DNA of 59,942 nucleotides from a virus (taxonomy: Duplodnaviria > Heunggongvirae > Uroviricota > Caudoviricetes): IMG/VR virus record IMGVR_UViG_3300045988_167837. The stretch is one strand, 5' to 3'. The translations under genes were made by a program, and so were the position numbers. Below the pieces are notes generated by a model that worked only from the letters and a program-made list of their open reading frames with translations, searched no databases and was not told the origin of the DNA. This document shows positions 265 to 59,442 of the stretch, piece by piece; the first letter of the stretch is position 1, and every line of letters begins with the position of its first letter.

Positions 265-1365
265 ATGAGCGAGTCCAAATCGCCGGATGCCCTGAGAGCA
301 ATGGTAGCCGGTACGCTGGCTAATTTTCAGCACCCAACCCTGAAACACAACCTGACTACGCTTAAAGCGTTACACCATGTTGCGTTGATGGATGACACAC
401 TGCATGTCGAACTAATCATGCCTTTCGTGTGGAATAAGCCTTTTGAAGACCTGAAAGAGCAATGTAGTGGTGATCTGCTACGTATCACTGGCGCAAAGGC
501 TATTGACTGGAAGCTGTCGTACAACATTGCCACGCTTAAGCGCGTCAAAAACCAACCAGGCATTAATGGCGTTAAGAACATTATCGCCGTCAGCTCAGGC
601 AAGGGCGGCGTGGGTAAATCCTCCACGGCGGTAAACCTGGCACTGGCGTTGGCTGCTGAAGGTGCGAAAGTTGGTATTTTGGATGCCGATATCTATGGTC
701 CATCAATTCCAACCATGCTGGGCGCGGAAAACCAACGTCCAACCTCACCGGACGGTACTCACATGGCACCTATCATGTCTCATGGCCTGGCAACCAACTC
801 TATTGGTTATCTGGTCACCGACGACAATGCAATGGTGTGGCGTGGACCGATGGCCAGCAAGGCGCTGATGCAGATGTTGCAGGAAACACTGTGGCCTGAT
901 CTGGACTATCTCGTTCTCGATATGCCACCGGGCACTGGTGATATTCAATTGACGCTGGCGCAGAACATTCCTGTAACTGGTGCGGTTGTGGTAACTACGC
1001 CGCAAGACATCGCGCTGATCGATGCGAAGAAAGGCATTGTGATGTTCGAAAAAGTCGAAGTGCCGGTACTGGGTATCGTTGAAAACATGAGTGTGCATAT
1101 TTGCAGTAACTGCGGTCATCACGAGCCAATTTTTGGCACCGGTGGCGCACAGAAACTGGCCGAGAAATACAACACGCAGTTGTTAGGCCAAATGCCACTT
1201 CATATCTCTCTTCGTGAAGATCTGGATAACGGAACACCAACCGTTATTAGTCGTCCAGATAGTGAATTTACGGCTATTTATCGTGACCTCGCAGATCGCG
1301 TTGCTGCCCAAATGTATTGGCAAGGTGAAGTAATACCTGGCGAAATCGCATTCCGCGCAGTGTGA
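265..1365 (+). CDS. apbC: Fe-S cluster carrier ATPase ApbC/Mrp
   Basis: 366-aa ORF, near-identical over its length to remembered E. coli Mrp ([24 protein letters not shown]-loop, CxxC motif ICSNCGHH); SD-like AAGGAG upstream of ATG. Confidence 0.95.
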
Positions 1366-2809: not shown

Positions 2810-4495
2810 TCATTTAACGCGTTTGAAAACGTATACGCTGACTGTGATCCCTGTGTCTTCAAACTCGTTGGTAAACGACTTCCCTCTGGCATAAACGTAA
2901 TTATCCATCGTCATCCAGTCCAGTATTGGCGCAGTGCCCGGCAATACTGCTACAAGACGCCCGCCGACTTTCAGATGCCCCAGCGCAGCCAGCGTGTGCT
3001 CTCTATGACGACCAAGCGAGTACGGCGGGTTCATAACGATTTTGTCGAACTGATAACCTGCGTTGTCCTCAGACCACTTTATGAAGTCGCAGCAAATCGT
3101 GTTCGTATACCCTTTTCCACGCAGGATATCAGCGAAGAGAGGTGCGATTTCTATGCAGGTAACATCTTCCAGATCGGCGTCAATATAGGCCAGAAGATCC
3201 CCACGTCCGGCTTGAGGCTCCAACAGCTTCTCACCAGGCTTCAATTCAGTGGCTCTTGCAACGTACTCAGCAATCAAGCGTGGGGTAGGGTAGAACTGGT
3301 GTGATTTTGTATCCGGTATTAAACCGGTAGCCACAATCGTATTTAGCGTATGGCCGATGTCATACGGGAACTGCCAGTGCTTTTTCTCCTGCACGCCGCC
3401 AATGAAGCTCAGTGTGCGCTCAAGCTCTTCCACCTGCGACTTCTGGAGAGCTGAATCAGAGAAGTACCATACACCTTTGTCTTTGCTCAATCGCCCGTCA
3501 CGAAGCGCAGTGCGAACCGGCACGGAGATCGTCTTCTGGATTAAACCGAACTGCTTTGGTGCCCGTGTTTTTGGCGCAGTTCGGCATGGCGCGGGGATTG
3601 CAGCAGGCATACTGTAAGCCAGCACCTCATTCAACTTCCAGGCCACGTCAGGATGTATTTCAAAGTGAACGTTGCCGTTCTTGAACATCTTCACGCGCAT
3701 CAGATTTCCATCGACGTTCATCCAGTCACCGGTCTGGCAGTCGTTTGCCCGATACGCAGCTGATAGCACCTCAGCAGTGCGGTTGATGGTAATAAATTCT
3801 TTGTGCGCGAAGAAATGAAGCAAGACACGCAGATCGTCGATGTAGTCCTCTTTGCGATAGTTCACGCTAACGCTGTCCCGCCAGAAATCAGAAATGCAGT
3901 CAGCGATTATCAGCCGCTCGCTGAAACCATTTGTCTTATTTGTCTTGTGCACAGGACTCAGCGCCTTAAACAAGCCATACACGCGCTCAGAGAGATATTT
4001 GTGCCTGTCATTCAGCAAATTAAGCATCGTGGGTATGACCGTTTCTGCTTTGAACTCCGGTACACCAACGAACTCTTTAACCTTCATCTGGTAGCCGGTT
4101 CTGTCAGTTTTGATGACTTCCTGTTTGCCCTCTATAAACTGCTCGCGCCACTCATCTCGACGGGAAGCTGGCATGATCAGCAAAACGTTAGTCATGTCCG
4201 TGACCTTCCTCCAGTACTCGGCCCAAATATTCTGTTTCACCCATTCCAGATCGACTTTATCCAACCAACCTCGATTTAAACGCGAGCGATCTTCATCTGG
4301 TCGATGGTTTAGTTTCAGCAGGCGATTAATCATGTTGTGGCGTTCGTCGCCATAAACGAAGTTGTGAACCTGATACATGAAGGCGATCTCTTTCTCGCAC
4401 TCGGCCACAATTTCGTGGATAACGTTCATTTCCTGACGATAATCGATAGCAGTGTTTGAGCTGGCATCGTCGATGATGGAAAGGGCTGTATTCAT
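2810..4495 (-). CDS. putative DNA methyltransferase with large N-terminal domain of unknown function (561 aa)
   Basis: C-terminal region has SAM-MTase-like motifs (LEPQAGRGDLL then IVMNPPY motif IV, typical of N6-adenine/N4-cytosine MTases); N-terminal about 380 aa without recognisable motifs. Confidence 0.6.
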   Translation of the reverse strand: MNTALSIIDDASSNTAIDYRQEMNVIHEIVAECEKEIAFMYQVHNFVYGDERHNMINRLLKLNHRPDEDRSRLNRGWLDKVDLEWVKQNIWAEYWRKVTDMTNVLLIMPASRRDEWREQFIEGKQEVIKTDRTGYQMKVKEFVGVPEFKAETVIPTMLNLLNDRHKYLSERVYGLFKALSPVHKTNKTNGFSERLIIADCISDFWRDSVSVNYRKEDYIDDLRVLLHFFAHKEFITINRTAEVLSAAYRANDCQTGDWMNVDGNLMRVKMFKNGNVHFEIHPDVAWKLNEVLAYSMPAAIPAPCRTAPKTRAPKQFGLIQKTISVPVRTALRDGRLSKDKGVWYFSDSALQKSQVEELERTLSFIGGVQEKKHWQFPYDIGHTLNTIVATGLIPDTKSHQFYPTPRLIAEYVARATELKPGEKLLEPQAGRGDLLAYIDADLEDVTCIEIAPLFADILRGKGYTNTICCDFIKWSEDNAGYQFDKIVMNPPYSLGRHREHTLAALGHLKVGGRLVAVLPGTAPILDWMTMDNYVYARGKSFTNEFEDTGITVSVYVFKRVK

Positions 4496-8449: not shown

Positions 8450-9043
8450 CTAAGCAGCCTTCTTTGATGGTCTTTTTTTCCTGATCACATTCGCAGGATC
8501 ATACCCTCCCAGACTTTTCATGACGTCCAAAGGGATCTTGCTTATAGAGTGCCCAGCGTCCTGACAGAATCCTCGAAAAACAACGAGCATACTGCCACCT
8601 GGGTTGATGTTTACTTCTACCTGACCCAGATTTACGTCAGGCTCGACAAACGCTACGCGGCCACCAGACAGAATAATCGTCTCATTCGCACACTCTGTTG
8701 CACGCTCATACCACTTTGTATCTAGGGATTGAGGAATTAGCATCACTGTTGTAACTCCGCGAGCCTGCTCACGTATAGCCGCATCAATCCAGGGGTAGAT
8801 TTTGGAGTAGGGTGGATTGAGGAAGGCAATTGTACCTGGCTGTCCCCATTCAGATTTCAAAGCATCACGCTCAACGCCTATGAAATTAGGCAGCTTTGCA
8901 TTGTCCTTGTTGCAGGCAACGTCAACATCAAATGTCACTCCAAGATAACGTTGAATGGCAGAAAACAGCCAGTCAGGTGTTCTCCAGAGGTCACGAAGAG
9001 AGTTGTCACGCTTTCGCTGTTTGATTTTTTCGGCTGCAATCAT
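8450..9043 (-). CDS. dam: phage-type DNA N6-adenine methyltransferase (Dam-like)
   Basis: 197 aa with WRTPDWLF N-terminal motif and FLNPPY catalytic motif typical of small phage Dam-family MTases. Confidence 0.75.
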   Translation of the reverse strand: MIAAEKIKQRKRDNSLRDLWRTPDWLFSAIQRYLGVTFDVDVACNKDNAKLPNFIGVERDALKSEWGQPGTIAFLNPPYSKIYPWIDAAIREQARGVTTVMLIPQSLDTKWYERATECANETIILSGGRVAFVEPDVNLGQVEVNINPGGSMLVVFRGFCQDAGHSISKIPLDVMKSLGGYDPANVIRKKRPSKKAA

Positions 9044-24076: not shown

Positions 24077-24159
24077 ATGTCATTTTTCTGTGATTGTTAG
24101 CCGAGGCAACGATAACCCACCAGGTGCGCCGAAGGTAGTAAATGCCTGTTTTAATTATT

Positions 24160-24240
24160 CACATATCCACAGGATAGATCCTAATAAAGAGATCCATAGA
24201 TAGATCCTTATATAGATCAAATAAGATCCCCGATCGCTGT
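24160..24240 (+). other. origin-type region: DnaA-box-like site followed by cluster of 5-6 GATC sites
   Basis: ATATCCACA (DnaA box-like) then repeated (T)AGATCC units, an arrangement recalled for P1 oriR. Confidence 0.5.
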
Positions 24241-24275
24241 AAGCCGCGCCACGACTGGTCTGAAGTCATGTTCAT

Positions 24276-24377
24276 GTATGCTGTCAGCGGTAATTGATAG
24301 TCTGTCAGCGGTTCACCGTATGCTGCCAACTGTTTTTGGTATTCTGTCAGCGGCAAATCAAGTATGCTGTCAGCGGT
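24276..24377 (+). repeat. iterons upstream of repA (4-5 copies of TATGCTGTCAGCGGT-like unit)
   Basis: Directly repeated 15-bp units at about 24277, 24299, 24318 (degenerate), 24342, 24362. Confidence 0.7.
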
Positions 24378-24397
24378 TGAATGACAAAGGTGTCCAC

Positions 24398-25492
24398 ATG
24401 TCCACAAAAAATAAAAAAGGTAAAAATAACAAAGAAGTAGAAGATAACATCGACAACTTTGAAGAAGGTTCCCTTGAATTGTACACAGGGGAACTTGTCC
24501 CTAATAGCAACAATACAGTCCAACCAATTGCGTTGATGCGACTGGGGTTGTTCGTCCCCACGCTTAAGGGAACAAAATACAGTAAACGTAACAAGCCAAA
24601 TGAGATCGATGCTTCAAAGGAGCTTGTCCAGCTCGAAGTAGCCCGTTCTGAAGGCTATTCCGATATCAAGATAACCGGTCCTCGTCTCGACATGGATCAT
24701 GATTTCAAAACGTGGGTGGGCGTTGTGCGTTCGCTGGCAGAATACGGCGAACCTAACGGTCGTGTCGAGTTAAGCATCACGAAATTTGCGAAGTTTTGTG
24801 GCTATCCATCGTCACAGATCCGCAAAACACTCCGCGACCGGCTTACAAACAGTCTTTTGAAGATCATGCGTACAACTCTGTCTTTCCAGAGAACGTATGA
24901 AGAAAAGAACGTCGACGGCTCTAACAAGATCTCGCTTCTGATGGTGCACCTCATCAATAGCGTGGACTACAACGAGCAGAAAGATACGGTGGTGTTCTAT
25001 GCAGAACCGAAGCTGGCCGAACTATATCGCTTTGACCATAAGGTTCTTTTGCAGTTAAAGGTTATCAATAAGCTACCACGCAAAGAAACAGCACAGGCTC
25101 TGTACACCTTCATCGAAAGTCTTCCAACCAAGCCTGCGCCGGTATCGCTTGCTCGATTGCGTGCGCGACTCAATTTGAGTAGCAGGAATGTCAGCTCGCA
25201 GAATCAGACTATACGTAACGGCTTAAAAGCTCTCCAAGATTTGGGCTATCTCGAATACAGCGAGATTAAGCGTGGGCGGTCGATCTATATCCAGATTCAC
25301 AGCCGCAATCCAAAACTCAAAGTCGCACCGCCAAAACCTGAAGACATCGAACCCAAAAAACCAGATGAGAAAGCCGGGGAAATTGATGCCAAACAGAACA
25401 TTATCAATAAGATAACCGAACTTTCGCAGAATTTGACGCCTGAAAATATCAAGATGATTGAGATCCTTTCCAATAGTCTCAAACTGCTTTGA
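24398..25492 (+). CDS. repA: P1-type plasmid replication initiator RepA
   Basis: Matches remembered P1 RepA blocks (NSNNTVQPIALMRLG, KITGPRLDMD-DFKTW, ALYTFIESLP, HSRNPKLK); start set at MSTKNKK inside ORF 24278..25492 because the upstream part is occupied by iterons. Confidence 0.85.
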   Translation: MSTKNKKGKNNKEVEDNIDNFEEGSLELYTGELVPNSNNTVQPIALMRLGLFVPTLKGTKYSKRNKPNEIDASKELVQLEVARSEGYSDIKITGPRLDMDHDFKTWVGVVRSLAEYGEPNGRVELSITKFAKFCGYPSSQIRKTLRDRLTNSLLKIMRTTLSFQRTYEEKNVDGSNKISLLMVHLINSVDYNEQKDTVVFYAEPKLAELYRFDHKVLLQLKVINKLPRKETAQALYTFIESLPTKPAPVSLARLRARLNLSSRNVSSQNQTIRNGLKALQDLGYLEYSEIKRGRSIYIQIHSRNPKLKVAPPKPEDIEPKKPDEKAGEIDAKQNIINKITELSQNLTPENIKMIEILSNSLKLL

Positions 25493-25493
25493 T

Positions 25494-26023
25494 ATGCTGT
25501 CAGCGGTGAAATGTATGCTATCAGCGGCTATTTTTCTGAAAAGTATGCTGTGAACGGTTAAAGATATGCTACCAGCGGTATAGTGAGATGAACGTATGCT
25601 GTGAGCGGTAAATCATCTATCACCACTCAATGCTCTGCCATACCTCCCCAGTGGTTACTAACCTCGAAGAGTGCATTCCATATAGGTTTGCGCTCACTAA
25701 CATTCTATTGCTATTGCGCTGATTGCTTGTAGTGAAAGGCATTTATTGCCTGCTACTCCCTGATAGAATGTATGCTGTCAGCGGTGTTTTATTGAGGAAT
25801 TTTTGTTTGGATATGCTATCAGCGGTAATTAATGGTATATGTCAGACCTTCGTATGCTGCCAGCGGTAATTTTGTTCTGGTTATACCCATACCGGGACAC
25901 ATTATTCATGCAATGTCTTAAGTATGCTGTCAGCGGTAAAAAATCGAGTAAAGTATGCTGTGAGCGGTGAGATAGACTCTCGATATGCTATCAGCGGTAG
26001 TTGATTGTGTATGCTGTCAGCGG
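25494..26023 (+). repeat. downstream iteron array (about 12 copies of TATGCT(G/A)(T/C)(C/G)AGCGGT, in two blocks)
   Basis: Copies at about 25494, 25514, 25545, 25565, 25595, then 25771, 25812, 25853, 25923, 25953, 25984, 26009; irregular spacing, all direct. Confidence 0.75.
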
Positions 26024-26071
26024 TGACGACTATGAAATATGACTGCGGAACGTGCCGCAGTCAGTTTGCAT

Positions 26072-26284
26072 TTAGTGTATTTTCTTTAACAGACCCCAAA
26101 GTGTTCCGGCTTTTGTAGTCAGTTTTCCTGTTTCTGGATCGTACATACGCCATTCACGCCGCTGGTGGACGATATACCCATCTTCACGTTCCAGACGCTC
26201 AAGAATGCCAGGCTGCTTGAAACCCTTAGCACGCCAGTAGCCGCTTGTTTTCTCGATTTCCAGACCTGCCAGTGTTAATGCCAT
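26072..26284 (-). CDS. hypothetical protein (70 aa)
   Basis: Start overlaps stop of upstream ORF 26284..26619. Confidence 0.4.
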   Translation of the reverse strand: MALTLAGLEIEKTSGYWRAKGFKQPGILERLEREDGYIVHQRREWRMYDPETGKLTTKAGTLWGLLKKIH

Positions 26285-27289: not shown

Positions 27290-31008
<3,719 letters not shown>

Positions 31009-41991: not shown

Positions 41992-43161
41992 TCACGTCTT
42001 AATAGTTTCTGCTACGTCGGCTAATATCGCTTCTAGTCGTTCTCCCTCTTCAGGTCTGAAGTAAAGAATGTTGGGGTTAAACCCGTAAAAGACAGTAACG
42101 TCAAGGTCTGGAAGATACTCCTTCCTGCCGACCAAATCGGATGGCTTGTTTTTGTTGTTAAACAATGAAGTTGCCCGGCTGCCACACGTCAGCACATAGG
42201 TCGGACGCACCAGATTGATCTCTTCACGCATAAAGTCGGTGAACTGGCCGATCTCGTCTTTGGTGTAGTCTTTTTCTTTGTCTTTAACCTTCTTGCAAAC
42301 ACCTGTGACATAGAGATCGCCCATGCGTAAATCTCCAGCCGTCAATAGCTTGGCCTTAAAGTCGTCGTATCCGTTCTCCATAAAGTAACCGGTTCGAGCA
42401 TCATTGCCGTTCGCATTGTCCAGAATGATCATGATTTTCGGCTTAATACCAATGCTGGGGCGGATTAGTTCATCACCTAAGCCCATTTCAGCCGCCATCC
42501 GCGTCATGAGTACGTTAATTTCAGCCGAACGTTTGGGGTTCATCTCAAACGGACGTGAGGCTTTAACTGCGTCTATGACAAGGTTTCCCATCAATTCAGC
42601 CTGGTCGCGTAGGCGCTCTGGATCAGTTGCTGGCAGACTGCCTGGCTCGATGGATGCAAACGCCCCTACTTTTTGCAGCGATTCGCGCACTCGACTATTA
42701 CAGGCACGTTTCTCGACAGCTTCTTCGAATTGCGCCAGTGACTCGAATTTGCCGCCAACTTTTTCTCGCGCTCTCATGATGGCTTGGCAGCCATTCTCAG
42801 AACACCCCTTCACAGCAGAGAAGGGCGCATACAGCACCTGGCTGCCATCTTCAAGCGTGCGGATCTCGATTCGGTTAGATGACACGTTAACGTCTGGTGG
42901 CAATACGCGAATGCCATAGGTCAGCGCATCTTTAACCAGCCCCTGGTGTTTATCTTCGCCAAGAATAGTGAGAGCAGCAGCGAAAAACTCTGCGGGATAA
43001 TGAGTTTTCAACCACATAGATTGATAACTGATTAAGGAGTAAGCAACAGAGTGTGATTTGTTGAAGGCATACGCGCCGGATTTCTCAAACATATTCCAGA
43101 TTTCTTCGGCTCGTTCGTGCGTCAGGCCATTGCTCTCTTCGACAACACCGGTAATTTTCAT
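41992..43161 (-). CDS. dnaE: DNA polymerase III alpha (DnaE-type), C-terminal fragment with own start codon
   Basis: Begins MKITGVVEESNGLTHERAEEIWNMFEKSGAYAFNKSHSVAYSLISYQSMWLKTHYPAEFF, the conserved DnaE finger motif; ATG overlaps stop of HNH gene. Confidence 0.8.
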   Translation of the reverse strand: MKITGVVEESNGLTHERAEEIWNMFEKSGAYAFNKSHSVAYSLISYQSMWLKTHYPAEFFAAALTILGEDKHQGLVKDALTYGIRVLPPDVNVSSNRIEIRTLEDGSQVLYAPFSAVKGCSENGCQAIMRAREKVGGKFESLAQFEEAVEKRACNSRVRESLQKVGAFASIEPGSLPATDPERLRDQAELMGNLVIDAVKASRPFEMNPKRSAEINVLMTRMAAEMGLGDELIRPSIGIKPKIMIILDNANGNDARTGYFMENGYDDFKAKLLTAGDLRMGDLYVTGVCKKVKDKEKDYTKDEIGQFTDFMREEINLVRPTYVLTCGSRATSLFNNKNKPSDLVGRKEYLPDLDVTVFYGFNPNILYFRPEEGERLEAILADVAETIKT

Positions 43162-43892
43162 GCAGTCACCTCATCAATCTTCACGAACTCATACCCATTG
43201 GAGGCCAGCCAGTTCCGTTGGCGCTCCCAGCTCCATATCTCTTCACGCATTTCACTATGCAGGCGAATGTGGGCGTCTTCTGGAAGTGCTACAAGATTCC
43301 CAGGGGCGTTATCTATCGTATCGCGGTTAATATGGTGGACATGTTCATCGTCACGTAGCTCCCGACCGAGACGTTCTTTCGCTATCAATCGATGAACGTA
43401 TTCGTATTGCGAAACGCCATTGTTACCAACCAGCTGCATCATGTAGCCGTTGGTTTTTACGATGATGCCACCTTTGTAGTTGTTCGCTTCTTCTCCGATC
43501 TTTCCGCGTTTGGCAGCCGCCAGCTTTTCCTTCGTCTCCGCGCGGATTGTTCTGCCGGTTAGCTTTTTCGAAACGGTGGCCACTCGCTCATCGATATCAG
43601 CACGCAGACCGGCATTCCACGAGGTTTTCCCATACATAGGGTTGCCAGTGCCAGTCCGGGCTTCGGAGAGACGCTTCATACGTTCGTCATTATTTTTGTT
43701 TTTGCCACGATTCCAGGCTGGGGTAGCGGAGATCCGCGCGCTTCCGCGCCTGATCCCCCATTTGGCTAATAAGCGGTCAATATTTGCCTTGCTGCAACCA
43801 GCTTCGGCGGCAATGTCTTCTTTTCTCATCAGGTCAACCATGTAACGCTGACGTAACCATTCTTCTGTGATTTTGTACTTCGTACTCGGCAT
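43158..43892 (-). CDS. HNH homing endonuclease (with NUMOD-like motifs) located between the two dnaE fragments
   Basis: C-terminal HNH motif EYVHRLIAKERLG...EHVHHINRDTIDNAPGNLVALPEDAHIRLH; GNPMYGKT-type motifs. Confidence 0.8.
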   Translation of the reverse strand: MPSTKYKITEEWLRQRYMVDLMRKEDIAAEAGCSKANIDRLLAKWGIRRGSARISATPAWNRGKNKNNDERMKRLSEARTGTGNPMYGKTSWNAGLRADIDERVATVSKKLTGRTIRAETKEKLAAAKRGKIGEEANNYKGGIIVKTNGYMMQLVGNNGVSQYEYVHRLIAKERLGRELRDDEHVHHINRDTIDNAPGNLVALPEDAHIRLHSEMREEIWSWERQRNWLASNGYEFVKIDEVTA

Positions 43893-43907
43893 TTCTAAGA
43901 CTCACTA

Positions 43908-43920
43908 AACAAATTGTTTT
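43908..43920 (-). promoter_or_regulatory. conserved palindromic motif AAACAAATTGTTT (copy 4), upstream of HNH gene
   Basis: Variant of the AAACAA-N-TTGTTT palindrome between the dnaE N-fragment stop and the HNH start. Confidence 0.3.
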
Positions 43921-43940
43921 CTTATCTTATAAATTAATTC

Positions 43941-46304
43941 TCAAATATCGAAGCTCGTTATGTCGGCATTTATTGCCATTGCTTCGGCATAAGTGCGACG
44001 CTCACCATCAGCACAAAGTAGGCGTGCTGCTTTATGGATTTTTCTCGTAGAACCATCATCCAGTGACACTGTCACCCAGCCTTCCTCCGCTCGCTTAATG
44101 AAGTCGCCGCCAATGGATTTCATTTTCTCCATATCTTTTTTCCCGATCGCTTTCCTGACCGAGTCTGCTTCCGCCATTGAGAACCCCGCCAAGATTCGCG
44201 TAGCAGCCATGATCTGTTCCTGATAAATCAGAACTCCGTTTGTGTCGCGAGAGATGTCGTCCAGCATTGGGTGTAAGGAATGTGGGGCCATGAAGCCTTT
44301 GGCCACGGACACATAATCGTCCAACATGCCGGATTGAATCGGGCCAGGTCGGAAGAGCGCAGTTGTAGCGACGACCGTTTTAAAGCTCATTGGCTCAATT
44401 CCACCACCTAAATCTTTAAGCAGCTTGCGCATTGGGCCTGATTCAAGCTGGAATACGCCCTGTGTATACCCTGCAGCAAAACCATCCAGCACCTTGCGAT
44501 CTTCAAGAGAAATGGCATCAAGATTGATATCTTCACCTGTGTTCTCTTTTATGTAGCGTTTTGCACTATCGAGCAAATCGAGAGTTGCCAGGCCAAGCAC
44601 GTCCAGCTTAATTAGGCCCATAGCCTCGCAGTAACGCTTGTCAAATGCGATACAACGCGCGTCACCACGGCGTTCAACCGGTGTACGTTCTGTCAGAGGA
44701 ACACCTGCTACGATCATCCCTGCCGCATGTCTACCAAAGCCACGCATAAGGCTTTGTAACTTGCAGGCTGCATTGAATGCATCAGGATATTTTGTTGCGT
44801 ATTTGTCGAGACTTGCCAGTTGTTCGCGCAGCTCTTCCAATGGAAGGCTATCATCCTCGACGTTCTTCAGTTCTTTTGATACCGCCATATCTGCGGACTC
44901 CACACCATAAATACGAGCGGTGTCACGTAGTGCAGAGGCTGCGCCCAGGTAGGTGAAGTTCGGAATGCCTGCAACGTAATCTTCGCCGTAGCGTTCATTC
45001 AGATACTCGATCACCTCATGGCGACGTGCCTGGCTGAAGTCCAAGTCCGCATCCGGCAAGTCGAGACGCTCAGGGTTGATGAAACGCTCAAACAGAAGAC
45101 CGTGACGGATTGGGTCGACGTTGGTTATGCCTATGCACCACGCCACCAGAGAACCGGCAGAGGAACCACGACCAGGCCCGACAGGAATGCCAGTTTCACG
45201 GCTGTGATTCATCAGATCGCGTACCATCAGGAAGTAACCACAAAATCCCAGGCGAGTAAGCGTGTCCATTTCGTACTTAAGTCGCTCAACATAAACCCTG
45301 TTCTCAGAAGCAGGTGGTGTGTATCCAAACTCTTTTGTGGTAAGACGTTTACGCAGCCCTGCAACAGCCAGTTTCATCAGCGTTGCAGGTTCGTCGTCTG
45401 CCATCTTGGGCAGTGCTGGTGGCAATTCATGCCAGCGCCATGTGCAGGCATCGATAATGGAGTCCTGCGTTGTTGAGGCCATTGCAGCTGTTACCGGCAC
45501 ATCCATGCGAACGGAGAAGGCTTTAAGCGCCTCAAGGAGATGGCGACGACCATTGATGGCGTTATCTCGCTGGTGGGGGATACGCAGACGATGCGGCTGG
45601 TCGATTTTTATGTTGTTCGTAACCATGTGCGCAATGTCTTTAATGTCTGCATCGTCGATCGATTCGTAATAAGCGGGATAGAACGCTACTGGCTCTATTT
45701 TCAGTGCGCTGGCGACTTTCATCGCCCGGACGTTAATCTGGTCGTAGAATGGGGTAGGGTGCGGATAAACCACACTATAGAAGTTGTCTTTTCCACCCGC
45801 TGTAATCAGTGTGCTTATGATTTTTGCAAAATCGTTGCGTTGGAACACGCTACCGATGTCGGAAGTAAGCAGGATGATGTTGCCTTTGGCATATGTAGAA
45901 ACCAACTGTTCGAGCGAGAGACGCGGTACAAAGTAGAACTGTTCTCGTGTGTTGGCCGCCGTCATTAGTTCGCAGATGTCGCGATATCCTTTCTCATTTT
46001 TAATTAGAGCGGTAAACGAGTAGTTACGTCCTCGCTCTAATGATTCCATACATCTCATAGATTCTTTAGCAAGTTTAGCCCGGTGCTCGTATGTGGGATC
46101 ATCAACAATGTTTAGTTTCACACCACAAATAACCGCCATGTCGTCACCAGCGGCACGTTGTAGTGGAATAACGCTCGCAATATTCATGCTATCTGCTGAA
46201 ATTACAGCGGTGTAGCCAGCTTCTCTGGCAATCTTCACCGCGTTTTCTGCTTTTAGAGCCGACTCCCCAAGTGAGAAGTCAGTTCGAACCATCAGTGCCT
46301 TCAT
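43941..46304 (-). CDS. dnaE: DNA polymerase III alpha (DnaE-type), N-terminal fragment (PHP domain and polymerase core)
   Basis: GPGRGSSAGSLVAWCIGITNVDP, LDLPDADLDF, IYQEQIM motifs; homology ends near ...KRAEEG, followed by a 45-aa non-homologous tail. Confidence 0.85.
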   Translation of the reverse strand: MKALMVRTDFSLGESALKAENAVKIAREAGYTAVISADSMNIASVIPLQRAAGDDMAVICGVKLNIVDDPTYEHRAKLAKESMRCMESLERGRNYSFTALIKNEKGYRDICELMTAANTREQFYFVPRLSLEQLVSTYAKGNIILLTSDIGSVFQRNDFAKIISTLITAGGKDNFYSVVYPHPTPFYDQINVRAMKVASALKIEPVAFYPAYYESIDDADIKDIAHMVTNNIKIDQPHRLRIPHQRDNAINGRRHLLEALKAFSVRMDVPVTAAMASTTQDSIIDACTWRWHELPPALPKMADDEPATLMKLAVAGLRKRLTTKEFGYTPPASENRVYVERLKYEMDTLTRLGFCGYFLMVRDLMNHSRETGIPVGPGRGSSAGSLVAWCIGITNVDPIRHGLLFERFINPERLDLPDADLDFSQARRHEVIEYLNERYGEDYVAGIPNFTYLGAASALRDTARIYGVESADMAVSKELKNVEDDSLPLEELREQLASLDKYATKYPDAFNAACKLQSLMRGFGRHAAGMIVAGVPLTERTPVERRGDARCIAFDKRYCEAMGLIKLDVLGLATLDLLDSAKRYIKENTGEDINLDAISLEDRKVLDGFAAGYTQGVFQLESGPMRKLLKDLGGGIEPMSFKTVVATTALFRPGPIQSGMLDDYVSVAKGFMAPHSLHPMLDDISRDTNGVLIYQEQIMAATRILAGFSMAEADSVRKAIGKKDMEKMKSIGGDFIKRAEEGWVTVSLDDGSTRKIHKAARLLCADGERRTYAEAMAINADITSFDI

Positions 46305-54492: not shown

Positions 54493-54579
54493 TGGCGGAG
54501 AGTAATGGAATCGAACCATCATCGCTTGCGCAATGGGACGGTTTTCAAGACCGCTTGAGCACCATGCTCCCTACTCTCC
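54493..54579 (-). tRNA. tRNA-Ser (anticodon TGA), class II with long variable arm
   Basis: rc folds as acceptor GGAGAGT/ACTCTCC, anticodon stem GCGGT/ACCGT with loop CTTGAAA, 14-nt variable arm, T-loop TTCGATT, encoded CCA. Confidence 0.6.
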
Positions 54580-54679
54580 AGCTATTGTGATGGTCGGTGC
54601 TGAACTCCGACACAGGGTTGTAGCAAGCCCCGCAAAGCGCGCACTACTGTAGTTGCGGCACATCAGCCTGTGCATTCAT

Positions 54680-54758
54680 CACAACGGTAAGATCACTACC
54701 TTTCGACCAGTCATTGTGCACATGAACGACGATTAACCGTAATGATCTTATCGTTGTG
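54680..54758. ncRNA. long hairpin element A (15-bp stem CACAACGGTAAGATC / GATCTTATCGTTGTG, about 49-nt interior) within tRNA cluster
   Basis: Perfect 15-bp inverted repeat with one G-T wobble position. Confidence 0.35.
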
Positions 54759-54809
54759 TTGTGAAGCCAGATGCTTATCTTCTGGTTGCTTCAAAGAGCT
54801 GCACTTCCT

Positions 54810-54898
54810 CACAACGGTAAGAGCACTGGTCTGACTCTATCGATTTACGGCCTTGTGGGTCAGTATCGCCGATTCGCCCAATGCTCTTACCTGTTGTG
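54810..54898. ncRNA. long hairpin element B (16/17-bp stem CACAACGGTAAGAGCA / TGCTCTTACCTGTTGTG) abutting tRNA-Thr
   Basis: Stem sequence shares CACAACGGTAAGA with element A. Confidence 0.35.
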
Positions 54899-54899
54899 T

Positions 54900-54975
54900 T
54901 GGTGCCGGTTAACGGACTTGAACCGCTGGCCATTCGCTTACAAAGCGACTGCTCTACCAACTGAGCTAAACCGGC
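54900..54975 (-). tRNA. tRNA-Thr (anticodon TGT)
   Basis: rc: acceptor GCCGGTT/AACCGGC, D-arm GCTC-AGTTGGTA-GAGC, anticodon loop TTTGTAA, T-loop TTCAAGT, encoded CCA; 76 nt. Confidence 0.65.
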
Positions 54976-54979
54976 AATT

Positions 54980-55066
54980 TGGTGGGGAGTGATGGAGTCG
55001 AACCACCCGAGTCGCCATGACAGTAGATTTACAGTCTACACCGCTACCTCTACGGACTAACTCCCC
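54980..55066 (-). tRNA. tRNA-Tyr (anticodon GTA), class II with long variable arm
   Basis: rc: acceptor GGGGAGT/ACTCCCC, anticodon stem GTAGA/TCTAC with loop CTGTAAA, long variable arm, T-loop TTCGACT, encoded CCA; 87 nt. Confidence 0.7.
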
Positions 55067-55071
55067 TAAAT

Positions 55072-55146
55072 TGGCGATGGTGGGTGGATTCGAACCACCG
55101 ACCAGTTGGTTAACAGCCAACTGCTCTACCGCTGAGCTACACCATC
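55072..55146 (-). tRNA. tRNA-Asn (anticodon GTT)
   Basis: rc: acceptor GATGGTG/CACCATC, D-arm GCTC-AGCGGTA-GAGC, anticodon stem GTTGG/CCAAC with loop CTGTTAA, T-arm GGTGG-TTCGAAT-CCACC, encoded CCA; 75 nt. Confidence 0.75.
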
Positions 55147-55327: not shown

Positions 55328-55365
55328 GGGGAGCCCGCAGAATTCGGAAAAAATCGTACGCTAAG
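55328..55365. repeat. 38-bp terminal inverted repeat of Tn21-family (Tn3 superfamily) transposon, tnpA-proximal end
   Basis: GGGGAGCCCGCAGAATTCGGAAAAAATCGTACGCTAAG, matching the GGGG...ACGCTAAG pattern of Tn21/Tn501-group IRs; tnpA stop codon lies inside it; GC content rises sharply from here. Confidence 0.8.
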
Positions 55366-58327
55366 GTTTTCCGGGCATCCGTAAGGGCCGAAACTTCCCG
55401 TCTTCCAGTCTGCGGCTCTGCCGCCAGACGTAATCGCCGGTTAGGTTGATGTGCTCCCAGCCCAGCGGCGACAGGAATTGCAGCAGCTCGCCGTCCACCG
55501 GCTTGCCGGCCTCGACCAACCCCTGGGTGGCGCGTTCCAGGTACACCGTGTTCCACAGCACGATAGCCGCCGTCACCAGGTTGAGGCCGCTGGCCCGGTA
55601 GCGCTGCTGCTCGAAGCTCCGATCCCTGATTTCCCCAAGGCGGTTGAAGAACACCGCCCTGGCCAGCGAGTTGCGCGCCTCACCTTTGTTCAGGCCGGCA
55701 TGCACGCGGCGGCGCAGTTCAACACTTTGCAGCCAGTCCAGGATGAACAGCGTGCGCTCGATCCGGCCCAGCTCGCGCAGGGCCACGGCCAGTCCGTTCT
55801 GGCGCGGGTAGCTGCCGAGCTTGCGCAGCATCAGCGAGGCGGTGACGGTGCCCTGCTTGATCGAGCTGGCCAGGCGCAGGATGTCGTCCCAGTGGGCACG
55901 CACGTGCTTGATGTTCAGGGTGCCGCCGATCAGCGGGCGCAACGTCGGGTAGGCTTGCACGCCCTGCGGCACGTACAGCTTGGTTTCGCCGAGGTCGCGG
56001 ATGCGCGGCGCGAAGCGGAAGCCTAGCAGGTGCATCAGGGCAAAGACGTGATCGGTGAAGCCGGCCGTGTCGGTGTAGTGCTCCTCGATCCGCAGGTCGG
56101 ACTCGTGGTACAGCAGGCCGTCGAGCACATAGGTGGAATCGCGGACGCCGACATTCACCACGCGGGTGCTGAACGGCGCGTACTGGTCGGAGATATGGGT
56201 ATAGAACAGCCGTCCCGGCTCGCTACCGTACTTCGGGTTGACGTGCCCGGTGCTCTCGCCCCGGCCACCCGCGCGGAAGCGCTGGCCATCGGAGGATGAG
56301 GTCGTGCCGTCGCCCCAGTGGGCGGCAAAGGCGTGGCGATACTGGTGGTTGACCAGCTCGGCCAAGGCCGCCGAATAGGTTTCGTCGCGGATGTGCCAGG
56401 CTTGCAGCCAGGACAGCTTGGCGTAGGTCAGGCCGGGGCTCGACTCGGCCATCTTGGTCAGCCCGAGGTTGATCGCATCACCGAGGATTGCGGACAGCAG
56501 CAACGTCCTGTCTTTGGCCTCGGCCCCGTCCTTCAAGTGGGTGAAGTGGCGGCTGAAGCCCGTCCAGTCGTCCACGTCCATCAGCAGTTCGGTGATCTTG
56601 ATGCGCGGCAGTAACTGGCTGGTTTGGTCGATCAGCGCCTGCGCCCGATCCGGCACCGCCGCATCCAGCGGGGTGATTTTCAGCCCTGACTCGGTGAGGA
56701 TGGCATCGGGCAGCTCGTTGTCCTTGGCCAGGCGGGTGACGGTGGCCAACTGCTCGTCCAGCAGCTGCAAACGCTCTTCCAGGTACTGGTCGCTGTTCGG
56801 GTTGATCGCCAGGGGCAGGGCCTGCTCGCGCTTGAGTGCGGCGAACTTCTCGGCCGGCAGCAGGTAGTCGTCGAAGTCGCGGAACTGCCGCGAGCCCTTG
56901 ACCCAGATGTCGCCGGAGCGCAGGGCGTTCTTCAGCTCGGACAGGGCGCAGATTTCGTAGAATTTCCGGTCGAGGCCTTCCGGGGTGATCACCAGCGGCT
57001 TCCAGCGCGGCTTGATGAAGGCCGTGGGTGCATCGGCCGGCACCTTGCGCAGGTTGTCGGCGTTCATCTCACGCAGGGTCTGCACGGCTGCCAGCACGCC
57101 TTGCGCGGCCGGCGCGGCGCGCAGTTCCAGCACCTCCAGCAAGGCCGGCGTGTAACGGCGCAGGGTGGCGAAGTTCTCGCCGACCAGGTGCAGGTGGTCG
57201 AAGCCTTCCGGCCGGGCCAGCAGCTCGGCCTCGCTGACGCTCTCGGTGAACTCGTCCCAGGGAATCACCGCCTCGATGGCGGCATAGGGGTCGCTGCCGC
57301 TTTCCTTCGCTTCCAGCAGCGCCTGGCCGATCCTGGAGTACAGGCGCACCTTGTCGTTGATCGCCTTGCCCTGCTTCTGGAACTGCTGCTGATGCTTGTG
57401 CTTCGCGCCGCTGAACAGCTTGACCAGGATGCGGTCATGCAGATCGACCAGCTCATCGATCACGGTCGCGGTGCTCTCCAGCACCACGGCGGCCAGGGTC
57501 GCGTAGCGGCGCTGCGGCTCGAACTTACCGAGGTCTTTGGGCGTCATCTGCCCACCCTCGCGGGCCAGCTTGAGCAGGCGGTTCTGGTGGATGTGCCGGC
57601 CCAGGCCTTCGGGCAAGTCCACCAACTGAAATGTCTTCAGCCGCTCGATGTGTTCCAGCATGTGCCGAGAGTTGGGTTTCAGCGGTGCCTGGCGCAGCCA
57701 GGTCAACCAGGTGATGCTGCTGCCGGCCTTGAGCTTCAACAGCTCGTCCAGCTTGGCCCGATGCGAGTCCGTGAGTGGTTCGACCAGGGCGCGGTAGACC
57801 CGCCGATTGGCTCGCGCAATGGCTTCCGAGCAGGCCCGGTCAATCACGCTCAGCGCCGGCAGGATGCGTCGTTTCTGCCGTAGGCTCTCCAGGGCCTGAC
57901 CGGCCAGCAGCAAGCCTTTGTCGGTCTGCTGGGCCAGCTCGGTTAGCTCGCGCACCAGGGCGCGGAAGTCGGACAGGCCGAACGGGGCCAGTTGCAGGTA
58001 GGTGCGCAGTTCCTGGGCATGCTCGCGACGGGTCACGTCGCGCTCGCCGTACTTTGCCCAGCTCGCCGGCTCGGCCTGGACTTGCTTCGCCACCCACAGG
58101 ATGACCGGCTCGGGCAGCTCGCTGTCGGTTCCCAGCGCGTAACCGGGGTAGCGCAGCAGGCAGAGCTGCACGGCGAAGCCGAGGCGGTTGGCGTCGCCGC
58201 GTCGCTGGCGGATCAGCGACAGGTCGGAGTCGTTGAAGGTGTAGTAGCGGATCAGGTCATCCTGGCTTTCCGGCAGCGCAAGCAGGGTGTCCCGCTCCGT
58301 GGCCGAGAGGATCAAGCGACGCGGCAT
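55361..58327 (-). CDS. tnpA: Tn3-family (Tn21 subgroup) transposase
   Basis: 988-aa ORF with recalled Tn21-group TnpA blocks (MPRR.ILSA.ER..LLALP N-terminus, DDE region [32 protein letters not shown]-terminal [20 protein letters not shown]). Confidence 0.9.
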
Positions 58328-58330
58328 GTG

Positions 58331-58891
58331 TCAGTCGTCCGTGCGGAGGTACTGGTAGAGGGTTTCCCGGCTGATGTTGAACTCGCGGGCAAGCTGCGCC
58401 TTGGGCTCGCCGGCCGTCGCTCGCTGCCGCAGGGTAGCAGCCTGCTCATCGGACAGGGCTTTCTTGCGGCCCCGGTACGCGCCACGCTGCTTGGCCAAGG
58501 CGATGCCCTCACGCTGCCGCTCGCGGATCAGGGCGCGCTCGAACTCAGCGAAGGCCCCCATCACCGACAGCATCAGGTTGGCCATCGGCGAGTCCTCGCC
58601 AGTGAACACCAGGCCCTCCTTCAGGAACTCGATGCGCACGCCGCGCTGAGTCAGCTTCTGTACCAAGCGACGCAGGTCATCGAGGTTGCGGGCCAGCCGA
58701 TCCATGCTGTGCACCACCACTGTATCGCCTTCGCGGACGAAGCTCAGCAGCGCTTCGAGCTGGGGGCGCTGGGTGTCCTTGCCCGATGCCTTGTCGGTGA
58801 ACACCTTGCTCACCTGGGTTTGTTCCAGCTGGCGTTCCGGGTTCTGGTCAAAGCTGCTGACCCGGACGTAGCCGATGCGGTGCCCCTGCAC
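58331..58891 (-). CDS. tnpR: serine recombinase resolvase
   Basis: 186 aa; catalytic Ser region GYVRVSSFDQNPERQ, C-terminal HTH; sequence as I recall it for Tn21 TnpR. Confidence 0.9.
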   Translation of the reverse strand: MQGHRIGYVRVSSFDQNPERQLEQTQVSKVFTDKASGKDTQRPQLEALLSFVREGDTVVVHSMDRLARNLDDLRRLVQKLTQRGVRIEFLKEGLVFTGEDSPMANLMLSVMGAFAEFERALIRERQREGIALAKQRGAYRGRKKALSDEQAATLRQRATAGEPKAQLAREFNISRETLYQYLRTDD

Positions 58892-59066
58892 GATGTCTCC
58901 TTGGTTGAAGGCGGCTTAAGTGCACTTTCTGTTCCGTTGTGCCTCAAAGCCCATTTCTGTCAGGCTGAAATCTATAACCTTCGCGGGCATGTGTCAAAAA
59001 ATGGGAAAGCAGACTCTATTCTGACGAAGCGGCGCGGCCCTGCCTGACATCAAGTTAGGGTATGCC
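58892..59066. other. res (resolution) site region between tnpR and tnpM
   Basis: Position by analogy with Tn21 organisation; subsites not individually delineated. Confidence 0.45.
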
Positions 59067-59417: not shown

Positions 59418-59442
59418 TGTCGTTTTCAGAAGACGGCTGCAC
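59418..59442. repeat. IRi, 25-bp inverted repeat at the intI1 end of a class 1 integron
   Basis: TGTCGTTTTCAGAAGACGGCTGCAC, the class 1 integron IRi sequence as I recall it. Confidence 0.8.

What the first reader, a model, noticed from the sequence alone, without database searches (positions are those of the whole stretch)
24160..26030. P1-type iteron replicon embedded among phage replication genes
DnaA-box-like site, a cluster of 5-6 GATC sites, 4-5 iterons, repA with recognisable P1 RepA blocks, then about 12 more iterons in two blocks. This is the organisation of a P1-type plasmid replicon, pointing to a plasmid-prophage lifestyle rather than a lytic phage. No parAB genes are visible in the window.
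Basis: partly seen in the sequence, partly recalled or inferred. Interest (0 to 1): 0.55.

Follow-up and report, generated by a model that had tools for sequence, protein, structure and literature searches.

The report
P1/RepFIB-type iteron replicon of phage-plasmid

Summary
There are tandem DnaA boxes (24155-24171) and six GATC sites within 59 bp. Five iterons (tATGCTGTCAGCGGt) follow at 21/21/21/23-bp spacing. repA (24398-25492, 364 aa) comes next, then 12 more iterons in blocks of 5 and 7.

RepA is 46% identical to P1 RepA over 278 aa (E 3e-86). The DnaA-box/GATC half of the origin aligns base by base with P1's annotated oriR.

The replicon is 100% identical to that of plasmid pSLy3, name-giver of an established phage-plasmid group in the SSU5 supergroup. 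In 5,426 complete E. coli genomes it occurs in 120, always on plasmids of about 105-114 kb and never on a chromosome. pSLy3 carries a full set of tailed-phage virion genes. It also has a small ParA-like gene, which lies outside this window.

The best reading is a plasmid-prophage maintenance replicon working like the P1 R replicon: origin upstream of repA, incA-like copy-control iterons downstream.

It is already known as a typed replicon, IncFIB(H89-PhagePlasmid). Two small additions emerge. RefSeq's 404-aa RepB start is probably over-extended through the iterons. A published placement of oriV downstream of repB is probably wrong.

The parts
24155..24171 (+). Left-end tandem DnaA boxes (TTATTCACA, then ATATCCACA)
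   Evidence: One perfect match and one 1-mismatch match to TTWTNCACA. The position is homologous to the annotated DnaA protein_bind site of P1 oriR.
24172..24236 (.). AT-rich cluster of six GATC (Dam) sites in (A/T)AGATCC heptamers; the presumed site of origin opening and SeqA sequestration
   Evidence: GATC at 24177, 24191, 24203, 24215, 24225 and 24232. The region is 64.6% A+T against 52.8% for the window. It aligns column for column with P1's five annotated Dam sites; the sixth site here corresponds to P1's decayed AGGTCC.
24237..24276 (.). GC-rich spacer (GCCGCGCCACGaCTGG) between the GATC cluster and the iterons
   Evidence: Conserved in P1 and in Klebsiella pJN2-26; partly conserved in SSU5 and IncFIB(K). 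Its function is not known.
24277..24377 (+). Five origin iterons (incC-like), consensus tATGCTGTCAGCGGt, spaced 21/21/21/23 bp
   Evidence: Number and phasing match P1 incC. The cores are conserved in the Klebsiella lineage while the spacers diverge.
24336..24365 (+). Positional homologue of the P1 repA promoter (TTGGTA, 18 nt, AAGTAT) inside the iteron array; inferred only
   Evidence: It has the same register and the same 18-nt spacer as the annotated P1 PrepA. The match to the sigma-70 consensus is weak, and the promoter scan did not call it.
24391..24406 (+). Two tandem TGTCCACA motifs (right-end DnaA-box-like) overlapping the repA start codon
   Evidence: Read from the sequence. Each is 2 mismatches from the 9-mer consensus. 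The same position holds GTATCCACA in pJN2-26, CTATCCACA in P1, TGTGGATAA in IncFIB(K) and CTGTCCACA in IncFIB.
24398..25492 (+). repA: 364-aa Rep_3-family iteron initiator
   Evidence: Pfam Rep3_N 3.9e-9; PHROG 775 5e-133. 46% identity to P1 RepA and about 50% to IncFIB RepA. The AlphaFold model (pLDDT 70.7) matches RctB domains 2-3, RepE and pi. An AAAGG Shine-Dalgarno motif lies at 24386-24390.
25493..25609 (+). Control-iteron block 1 (incA-like): 5 iterons spaced 21/30/21/30 bp, starting 1 bp after the repA stop codon
   Evidence: P1 incA likewise starts at the repA stop.
25610..25770 (.). 161-bp iteron-free spacer between the two control blocks
   Evidence: No iteron match. Not alignable with the Klebsiella lineage. 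No Rfam match.
25771..26024 (+). Control-iteron block 2: 7 iterons spaced 41/41/70/31/30/26 bp
   Evidence: The copy number varies among relatives: PhiR41_1 lacks the last three through an 87-bp iteron-to-iteron deletion, and pJN2-26 has 4+4.
26040..26063 (.). 9-bp G+C-rich hairpin that bounds the replicon on the right; a bidirectional terminator-like site between the rep locus and the converging leftward operon
   Evidence: The RNA fold is -18.4 kcal/mol, z = -4.6. Homology with the SSU5 and Cyrano backbones resumes at 26055-26074.

Best explanation
This is the plasmid-maintenance (lysogenic) replicon of a pSLy3-group, SSU5-supergroup phage-plasmid. It is a member of the P1 (IncY) / RepFIB family of iteron replicons.

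The mechanism below is inferred by homology with the P1 R replicon and is not shown here.

- Initiation: RepA monomers bind the five phased iterons at 24277-24377. Host DnaA binds the tandem boxes at the left end and probably the TGTCCACA pair at the right end.
- Opening: the duplex opens in the AT-rich GATC-heptamer stretch, whose Dam methylation state gates firing. A fully methylated origin is active; a hemimethylated one is sequestered after initiation.
- Autoregulation: repA is transcribed from a promoter buried in the iterons and is therefore repressed by its own product.
- Copy control: the 12 downstream iterons act as an incA-like locus. They bind RepA and pair ('handcuff') with the origin iterons, holding copy number near one or two per chromosome.
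- Segregation: this is handled by a separate small ParA-like system elsewhere on the element.

Shown here: the anatomy, the homology, the conservation pattern and the exclusively plasmid location. Inferred: every binding event, the promoter, Dam and DnaA dependence, and handcuffing.
For: Anatomy and statistics.

RepA homology:
- 46% identity to P1 RepA over 278 aa, E 3e-86.
- tblastn hits to P1 and P7 (E down to 1e-68) and to SSU5 (4e-78).
- Pfam Rep3_N.
- The predicted fold matches the iteron initiators RctB domains 2-3, RepE and pi.

Origin homology: the DnaA/GATC half aligns with P1's experimentally annotated oriR features.

Constraint on the iterons: the Klebsiella pKpn-group replicon has RepA 85% identical and DNA about 75% identical. 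It keeps the same iteron core, the same number of origin iterons (5) and the same spacing (21/21/21/23), while spacers and the downstream region diverge.

Co-variation: iteron sequence changes together with RepA. P1, SSU5 and this replicon each have their own iteron in the same register.

Control iterons: they vary in number (12, 9, 8) where the origin iterons do not.

Location: 120 of 5,426 complete E. coli genomes carry the replicon, with 186 places on plasmids and 0 on chromosomes.

Sole typed replicon: it is the only replicon typed on pSLy3 (rep_cluster_488). A close relative types as IncFIB(H89-PhagePlasmid) (PMC13463583).

Element identity: pSLy3 is an established phage-plasmid type (PMC7969092), and SSU5-like phage-plasmids are inducible and packaged (PMC9600943).
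Against: - No experiment on this replicon was found.
- No sigma-70-like promoter was called on the + strand; the proposed PrepA rests on position only.
- The right-end DnaA motifs are 2 mismatches from the consensus.
- All 12 control iterons are direct repeats, whereas 6 of P1's 9 incA iterons are inverted, so the pairing geometry may differ.
- The element encodes its own Dam-family methylase, DnaB-like helicase, primase and Pol III alpha, so dependence on host factors may differ from P1.
- One publication places oriV in the distal downstream iterons instead (PMC13463583).
Confidence: 0.88

Rival explanations
1. The origin (oriV) lies downstream of repB in the tight cluster of four iterons at 25924-26023, as stated for the near-identical plasmid pEc_K1G_A. 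On this view the upstream repeats are simply part of a 404-aa RepB coding sequence.
For: PMC13463583 describes a four-copy 21-bp iteron oriV downstream of a 1215-nt repB. RefSeq annotates the 404-aa ORF starting at 24278. That ORF is open through all five upstream repeats.
Against: - The downstream cluster has no DnaA box, no GATC cluster and no AT-rich stretch nearby. All three features lie upstream and align with P1's annotated oriR.
- The deposited phage genome PhiR41_1 lacks three of those four iterons.
- The Klebsiella lineage has a different downstream layout but an identical upstream one.
- The extra 40 codons are translated iterons. The 21-bp phasing equals 7 codons, which keeps the frame open.
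- Substitutions against Klebsiella in those 120 nt are not biased to third codon positions: 12 of 25, against 199 of 271 in repA (Fisher P = 0.011).
- The alignment with P1 RepA begins at residue 32 of the short form.
- Several homologues, and many assemblies rotated to begin at repA, use the short start.
Confidence: 0.05
2. The RepA/iteron origin is the phage's origin for lytic replication, or serves both modes. RepA would load the element's own DnaB-like helicase, primase and Pol III alpha, rather than the unit being a plasmid-only maintenance replicon.
For: The replicon sits inside the DNA-metabolism module, between the SbcCD-like nuclease, nrdAB and thyA on one side and recA-like and dnaE genes on the other. 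The element encodes its own replisome parts and a Dam-family methylase. No second initiator or origin was identified here, but none was searched for systematically.
Against: Homologous P1 and RepFIB replicons are low-copy, negatively controlled theta replicons. In P1 they are distinct from the lytic replicon (oriL/repL); this is established knowledge of P1, not tested here. Twelve control iterons are designed to restrain initiation, not amplify it. This rival is also compatible with the best explanation, since a dual-use origin would still be the maintenance origin.
Confidence: 0.1
3. The locus is an inactive relic, and the element is maintained by another, unrecognised replicon.
For: Some multi-replicon plasmids carry weak or silent FIB replicons; F's FIB replicon is an example (PMC11983097).
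Against: It is the only replicon typed on pSLy3. All parts are intact. The sequence is at least 95% identical in more than 115 E. coli plasmids. The iteron cores are conserved across lineages whose DNA is about 75% identical. Related backbones replace it with another complete cassette rather than losing it (Cyrano).
Confidence: 0.03

Closest known systems
Phage P1 plasmid (R) replicon: oriR/incC - repA - incA (IncY)
   Same: - RepA is homologous: 46% identity over 278 aa.
- The order of parts is the same: tandem DnaA boxes, GATC heptamers, a GC-rich spacer, five iterons at two-turn phasing, repA, then control iterons starting at the repA stop codon.
- The left half of the origin is alignable at the nucleotide level.
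- The host element is a phage that lives as a plasmid.
   Different: - Iteron sequence: ATGCTGTCAGCGG here, ATGTGTGCTGGAGGG in P1.
- GATC sites: six here, five in P1.
- Control iterons: 12 here, all direct and in two blocks split by a 161-bp spacer; P1 has 9, three direct and six inverted.
- RepA carries an extra C-terminal tail of about 55 aa, predicted as a helical hairpin.
- parAB-parS is not adjacent as it is in P1; a small ParA-like gene lies elsewhere on the element.
- The host phage is an unrelated long-tailed SSU5-like phage, not a P1-like myovirus.
RepFIB replicons of IncF plasmids (P307, F, pO157; IncFIB(K) of Klebsiella)
   Same: RepA is about 50% identical. The DnaA box, GATC heptamers, upstream iterons, repA and downstream iterons come in the same order. 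In RepFIB the upstream iterons belong to the origin and the downstream iterons exert control and incompatibility, as shown experimentally (PMC11983097). PlasmidFinder names a near-identical relative's replicon IncFIB(H89-PhagePlasmid) (PMC13463583).
   Different: The iteron sequences differ, so the incompatibility specificity is presumably different too. The carrier here is a non-conjugative phage-plasmid rather than an F-type conjugative plasmid.
Replicons of the other SSU5-supergroup phage-plasmids (SSU5/pHCM2, Cyrano, Klebsiella pKpn group)
   Same: The replicon sits at the same locus, between the 214-aa ORF (PHROG 2105) and the 70-aa cra-like ORF. The pKpn group shares the iteron core and the layout of the five origin iterons.
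   Different: SSU5 and Cyrano carry another specificity cassette: RepA about 48-51% identical, iterons AACCACTGTAGAGAG, some downstream iterons inverted, and a duplicated origin-left module. Cyrano's flanking gene is about 95% identical to the window, yet its iterons and repA are unalignable. That indicates cassette replacement.
Mini-F ori2/RepE-incC and Vibrio cholerae chromosome II RctB
   Same: Both are iteron initiators built from two winged-helix domains; the predicted RepA fold matches RepE and RctB domains 2-3. Both use control iterons and handcuffing logic.
   Different: Sequence similarity is not detectable: a phmmer search against PDB sequences found nothing. Origin architecture and accessory sites differ.

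Membership tests
P1/RepFIB-family iteron replicon | Rep_3-type initiator homologous to P1 RepA and RepFIB RepA | tested here: met
   blastp against P1 RepA gives 46% identity over 278 aa, E 3e-86. tblastn against IncFIB plasmids gives about 50% identity, E about 1e-82. Pfam Rep3_N scores 37.5 bits against a 22.4-bit cut-off.
P1/RepFIB-family iteron replicon | Origin immediately upstream of repA with about five directly repeated iterons at two-helical-turn phasing | tested here: met
   Five iterons at 24278-24376, spaced 21/21/21/23 bp. P1 has 21/21/21/22 bp.
P1/RepFIB-family iteron replicon | DnaA boxes at the outer (left) end of the origin | tested here: met
   TTATTCACA and ATATCCACA at 24155-24171. 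They are aligned with P1's annotated DnaA site.
P1/RepFIB-family iteron replicon | DnaA box(es) at the inner (repA-proximal) end of the origin | tested here: inconclusive
   TGTCCACA occurs twice at 24391-24406, each 2 mismatches from the 9-mer consensus. Better boxes occupy the same position in pJN2-26, P1 and IncFIB(K).
P1/RepFIB-family iteron replicon | Cluster of GATC (Dam) sites in AT-rich heptamers between the DnaA boxes and the iterons | tested here: met
   Six GATC in 59 bp, unique within the window. They are homologous to P1's five annotated Dam sites and are also present in IncFIB and IncFIB(K).
P1/RepFIB-family iteron replicon | Second iteron array (incA-type control locus) directly downstream of repA | tested here: met
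   Twelve iterons at 25494-26023, starting 1 bp after the stop codon. The control function itself was not tested.
P1/RepFIB-family iteron replicon | repA promoter embedded in the origin iterons (autoregulation) | tested here: inconclusive
   Only a weak positional homologue exists (TTGGTA, 18 nt, AAGTAT at 24336-24365). The promoter scan found no + strand site.
P1/RepFIB-family iteron replicon | Autonomous low-copy replication dependent on RepA, DnaA and Dam methylation; incompatibility exerted by the iterons | not testable with these tools
   Only indirect evidence is available: all 186 occurrences in complete E. coli genomes are on plasmids.
P1 prophage maintenance region (rep plus par as one block) | Type Ia parA-parB-parS operon immediately downstream of incA | tested here: not met
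   Downstream lies a converging operon of small ORFs. No P1 ParA or ParB homologue is in the window. In pSLy3 a 222-aa ParA-like gene plus a 117-aa ORF lies about 40 kb from repA.
pSLy3 group of SSU5-supergroup phage-plasmids | Backbone shared with pSLy3 (virion, recombination and DNA-metabolism genes), extrachromosomal circular element of about 105-115 kb | tested here: met
   The window is 94.5-99.9% identical to pSLy3 over about 44 kb of alignable backbone. pSLy3 carries terminase, portal, capsid, tape measure and tail fibre genes. The group is defined in PMC7969092.

The most novel reading that the evidence does not exclude
The RepA/iteron origin is dual-use. In lysogeny it is a tightly restrained P1-like plasmid origin gated by host Dam and SeqA. 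After induction, the element's own Dam-family methylase (8450-9043) and replisome genes (DnaB-like helicase, primase, Pol III alpha) override sequestration and handcuffing, so the same origin drives lytic amplification.

A linked, better-supported observation: the whole replicon (about 24.08-26.05 kb) is an exchangeable specificity cassette at a fixed locus in SSU5-supergroup phage-plasmids. Cyrano has the same backbone but an SSU5-type RepA and iterons. Such exchange would let related phage-plasmids escape mutual incompatibility while keeping the DnaA/GATC half of the origin.
Probability: 0.1. Interest if true: 0.5.

Novelty: already known. Interest (0 to 1): 0.15.

Why it matters
The value is mainly in annotation. 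The region identifies the window as part of a temperate phage-plasmid (pSLy3 group, IncFIB(H89-PhagePlasmid) replicon) rather than a lytic phage or an ordinary plasmid. This group is present in about 2% of complete E. coli genomes, and this copy carries a Tn21-family transposon.

The detailed map (DnaA boxes, Dam sites, 5 origin and 12 control iterons, the short RepA start) does not appear in the public records inspected here, and it contradicts one published oriV placement. It gives a ready design for three things: minimal-replicon constructs, incompatibility-based curing using the downstream iterons (as shown for FIB replicons), and copy-number studies of resistance-bearing phage-plasmids.

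It does not open a new biological question.

Tried and rejected
- NCBIfam scan of RepA: no family.
- phmmer of RepA against PDB sequences: no hit at E<=1. The fold search was needed to link it to RepE, pi and RctB.
- Sigma-70 promoter scan: nothing on the + strand in the origin, so the promoter is assigned only by position relative to P1.
- Rfam at gathering thresholds over the whole window: only tRNAs; no antisense or regulatory RNA at the replicon.
- Literature look-ups that failed: Lindler 1998 on pMT1 (PMID 9826348) and Gilcrease & Casjens 2018 on plasmid prophages (PMID 29304472 and my guess at its PMC number) are not held. Statements about pMT1 are therefore left out of the evidence.
- The 2026 preprint on phage-plasmid heteroresistance concerns a different, CopA/CopT-regulated replicon. 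It only lists pSLy3 as an established type.
- The 214-aa 'AAA family ATPase' inside the window (pSLy3 91651-92295) was considered as a ParA and rejected: Pfam shows kinase-like AAA_28/AAA_17 domains.
- The two ParB_N-domain proteins beside the terminase in pSLy3 were not accepted as a partition ParB, but only on context: they sit in the packaging module, and that rests on my own knowledge. One paper does call one of them parB.
- The ApbC/Mrp ORF at 265-1365 hits the Pfam family named 'ParA' (PF10609), which is the NUBPL Fe-S carrier family and not a partition ATPase.
- I first read the Cyrano comparison as a sharp cassette boundary at 24264. A sliding-identity check showed that identity already falls from about 95% to 70-84% at the end of the 214-aa gene, around 24080, so the whole intergenic origin belongs to the diverged cassette.
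Full report

Yes, in every detail.

- **DnaA boxes.** Reading 24100-26100 and scanning the window shows a perfect DnaA box, TTATTCACA, at 24155. It is one of three perfect matches in 60 kb. A second box, ATATCCACA, abuts it with one mismatch.
- **GATC cluster.** Six GATC sites lie between 24177 and 24235. No other 80-bp stretch of the window holds more than three. The expectation for 59 bp is 0.27, and the Poisson tail is 4e-7 per position. The stretch is 64.6% A+T against 52.8% for the window.
- **Origin iterons.** Five copies of tATGCTGTCAGCGGt follow at 24278, 24299, 24320, 24341 and 24364, spaced 21, 21, 21 and 23 bp.
- **repA.** An ORF whose most plausible start is ATG 24398 runs to 25492.
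- **Downstream iterons.** One base after the stop codon a second array begins: five iterons (25494-25608), a 161-bp gap, then seven more (25772-26023). All 17 iterons are on the + strand.
- **Statistics.** The degenerate core ATGCTRYSARCGG occurs 14 times, all inside this locus, against 0.04 expected from shuffles.
- **Right boundary.** A strong hairpin at 26040-26063 closes the locus.

**2. What is the protein?**

- RepA (364 aa) matches Pfam Rep3_N and PHROG 775.
- It is 46% identical to P1 RepA over almost the whole P1 protein, E 3e-86.
- By tblastn it also matches P7, SSU5 (48%) and Klebsiella phage-plasmids (85-88%).
- It matches at least 5,000 plasmid records, most of them IncFIB-type, at about 50% identity.
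- An AlphaFold model built on 41 homologues has pLDDT 70.7. It finds RctB domains 2-3, RepE and pi, which are the two-winged-helix iteron initiators.
- A disordered linker and a confident helical hairpin (328-363) form a C-terminal tail that P1 RepA lacks.

**3. Is the origin homologous to P1 oriR, or only similar in plan?**

It is homologous. The P1 record annotates the DnaA site, five Dam sites, five incC iterons, PrepA, repA and nine incA iterons.

- **Shared half.** An alignment of this origin with P1, SSU5 and Klebsiella pJN2-26 puts four things in the same columns: the DnaA boxes, each GATC heptamer, the AGATCCCCGATCG motif and the GC-rich GCCGCGCCACG..CTGG spacer.
- **Diverged half.** The five iterons keep the same register but have a different sequence in each RepA lineage: ATGTGTGCTGGAGGG in P1, AACCACTGTAGAGAG in SSU5, ATGCTGTCAGCGG here and in Klebsiella. 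The host-factor half of the origin is thus conserved, while the initiator-specific half co-varies with RepA.
- **Family-wide layout.** Classical IncFIB and IncFIB(K) replicons show the same layout. The architecture therefore characterises the whole P1/RepFIB family.

**4. Evidence of constraint**

- The Klebsiella replicon is about 75% identical in DNA. It nevertheless keeps near-perfect iteron cores, five origin iterons and the 21/21/21/23 spacing. Beyond the first control iterons the downstream region is not alignable except at the iterons themselves.
- The number of control iterons varies: 12 here and in pSLy3, 9 in phage PhiR41_1 (an 87-bp iteron-to-iteron deletion), and 8 in pJN2-26.
- A fixed origin array and a drifting control array are what the P1/RepFIB model predicts. 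For RepFIB the split into an origin upstream and control/incompatibility iterons downstream has been shown experimentally (PMC11983097).

**5. What element is this?**

- **Plasmid records.** The 1,951-bp locus is 100% identical to that of plasmid pSLy3 (NZ_CP015915) and at least 95% identical in more than 120 PLSDB plasmids. Most are non-mobilizable E. coli or Shigella replicons of about 105-117 kb.
- **Phage records.** It is 99-99.5% identical in three phage records: PhiR41_1 and two of CMS-2020a.
- **Established type.** pSLy3 gives its name to one of the four groups of the SSU5 supergroup of phage-plasmids (PMC7969092).
- **Backbone.** The window is 94.5-99.9% identical to pSLy3 over about 44 kb of alignable backbone. 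pSLy3 encodes terminase, portal, major capsid, tape measure and tail fibre proteins, together with a DnaB-like helicase, primase, ligase, Pol III alpha, NrdAB and ThyA.
- **Location in genomes.** Among 5,426 complete E. coli genomes the locus is present in 120, at 186 places, all on plasmids.
- **Typing.** A near-identical relative is typed IncFIB(H89-PhagePlasmid) by PlasmidFinder (PMC13463583).

The element is also already catalogued.

**6. Partition**

- The window contains no ParA or ParB homologue.
- The only ParA-superfamily protein in it is an ApbC/Mrp Fe-S carrier at 265-1365.
- In pSLy3 a 222-aa ParA-like ATPase (MipZ/AAA_31/CbiA domains; PHROG 'ParA-like partition protein') lies about 40 kb from repA, followed by a 117-aa ORF. 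That is a few kilobases beyond the window's end.
- Unlike in P1, rep and par are not one block.

**7. Corrections to existing annotation**

- **The RepB start.** RefSeq calls a 404-aa RepB starting at ATG 24278, which is inside iteron 1. The 21-bp iteron period equals seven codons, which keeps that frame open.
  - Substitutions against the Klebsiella lineage in those 120 nt lack the third-position bias seen in repA: 12 of 25 against 199 of 271, P = 0.011.
  - The P1 alignment begins at residue 32 of the short form.
  - A Shine-Dalgarno-like AAAGG precedes ATG 24398.
- **The oriV placement.** A 2026 paper on pEc_K1G_A uses the long ORF, lists only eight downstream repeats, and places oriV in the four distal ones. 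Against this:
  - PhiR41_1 lacks three of those four.
  - No DnaA box, GATC cluster or AT-rich tract lies there.
  - The upstream region is homologous to P1's mapped origin.

**8. Replicon exchange**

Phage Cyrano shares the window's backbone: identity is about 95% through the flanking 214-aa gene. Identity then falls to 70-84% across the DnaA/GATC region and is lost at the iterons. It returns at 26055. Cyrano carries the SSU5-type RepA and iterons, with a duplicated origin-left module. The whole replicon thus behaves as a swappable cassette at a fixed locus, with a likely consequence for incompatibility.

**9. Mechanism and confidence**

By homology, I take this to work like the P1 R replicon.

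- DnaA plus RepA monomers open the methylated, GATC-rich AT tract.
- RepA represses its own promoter, which lies in the iterons.
- The downstream iterons titrate RepA and handcuff the origin.

All of these steps are inferred; none is shown here. Differences that could matter:

- All control iterons are direct repeats, whereas 6 of P1's 9 are inverted.
- There are two control blocks rather than one.
- RepA has a C-terminal tail.
- The element encodes its own Dam-family methylase and its own replisome genes.

Confidence that this is the lysogenic maintenance replicon of a phage-plasmid, organised as described, is about 0.88.

**10. Verdict**

Novelty is low, because this is a known replicon type in a known phage-plasmid group with hundreds of public copies. 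The added value is a precise functional map and two annotation corrections.

Noticed in passing
window 41992-46304 (- strand): The Pol III alpha (dnaE) homologue is split into a 787-aa N-terminal ORF (43941-46304) and a 389-aa C-terminal ORF (41992-43161). A free-standing HNH/NUMOD3 endonuclease gene (43158-43892) sits between them, its stop codon overlapping the start of the C-terminal ORF. pSLy3 has an uninterrupted dnaE, and only about 6 residues are replaced at the junction. It looks like a homing-endonuclease insertion that makes a two-piece polymerase.
   Followed up: partly
window 55361-59942: This is the end of a Tn3/Tn21-family transposon inserted in the phage-plasmid backbone: tnpA 55361-58327, tnpR 58331-58891, and a DUF3330/EAL-remnant ORF at 59067-59681. 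This copy of the phage-plasmid may therefore carry mercury- or antibiotic-resistance cargo beyond the window.
   Followed up: no
window 8450-9043 (- strand): The element encodes a Dam-family N6-adenine methyltransferase (Pfam PF05869, E 2.9e-38 on the pSLy3 copy; the same 197-aa ORF is present in the window) about 15 kb from an origin with six GATC sites. Whether it methylates GATC and affects origin firing is unknown.
   Followed up: partly
L004 3255-3500 and 3630-3900 (SSU5); L008 3255-3500 and 3640-3900 (Cyrano): SSU5 and Cyrano carry two tandem copies of the origin-left module (DnaA box, GATC heptamers, iterons). In the copy next to repA several GATCs have decayed to GAACC or GACCC.
   Followed up: partly
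window ~24080-26055 vs L008 (Cyrano): Cyrano shares the flanking genes at about 95% identity but carries an SSU5-type RepA/iteron cassette. This is replicon cassette replacement at a fixed locus between the 214-aa ORF and the cra-like 70-aa ORF.
   Followed up: partly
L002 (PhiR41_1) 4062-4123 vs window 25924-26023: Phage PhiR41_1 has lost three control iterons through an 87-bp deletion between identical iterons, leaving 9 instead of 12. It is a natural copy-control variant that would be worth a copy-number measurement.
   Followed up: partly
L007 1378-1397 and 2648-2667 (Klebsiella phage pJN2-26): The GenBank record labels two iterons flanking repA as phage attachment sites attR and attL. This is an annotation artefact of a prophage-finding tool that picked up the iteron repeats.
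   Followed up: yes
window 54493-55146 (- strand): A cluster of four tRNA genes (Ser-TGA, Thr-TGT, Tyr-GTA, Asn-GTT) lies next to the transposon insertion.
   Followed up: no
window 265-1365 (+ strand): A full-length ApbC/Mrp-type Fe-S cluster carrier ATPase (Pfam PF10609, E 2e-102). In pSLy3 it sits beside a methionyl-tRNA synthetase gene, so chromosomal-type housekeeping genes are carried on a phage-plasmid.
   Followed up: no
window 27290-31008: An IS3-family transposase fragment (27290-27976) abuts a type I restriction-modification system, with the R subunit at 27991-31008. pSLy3 has a group II intron reverse transcriptase near the same place, and an IS91 between the 214-aa ORF and the origin that is absent here.
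   Followed up: no
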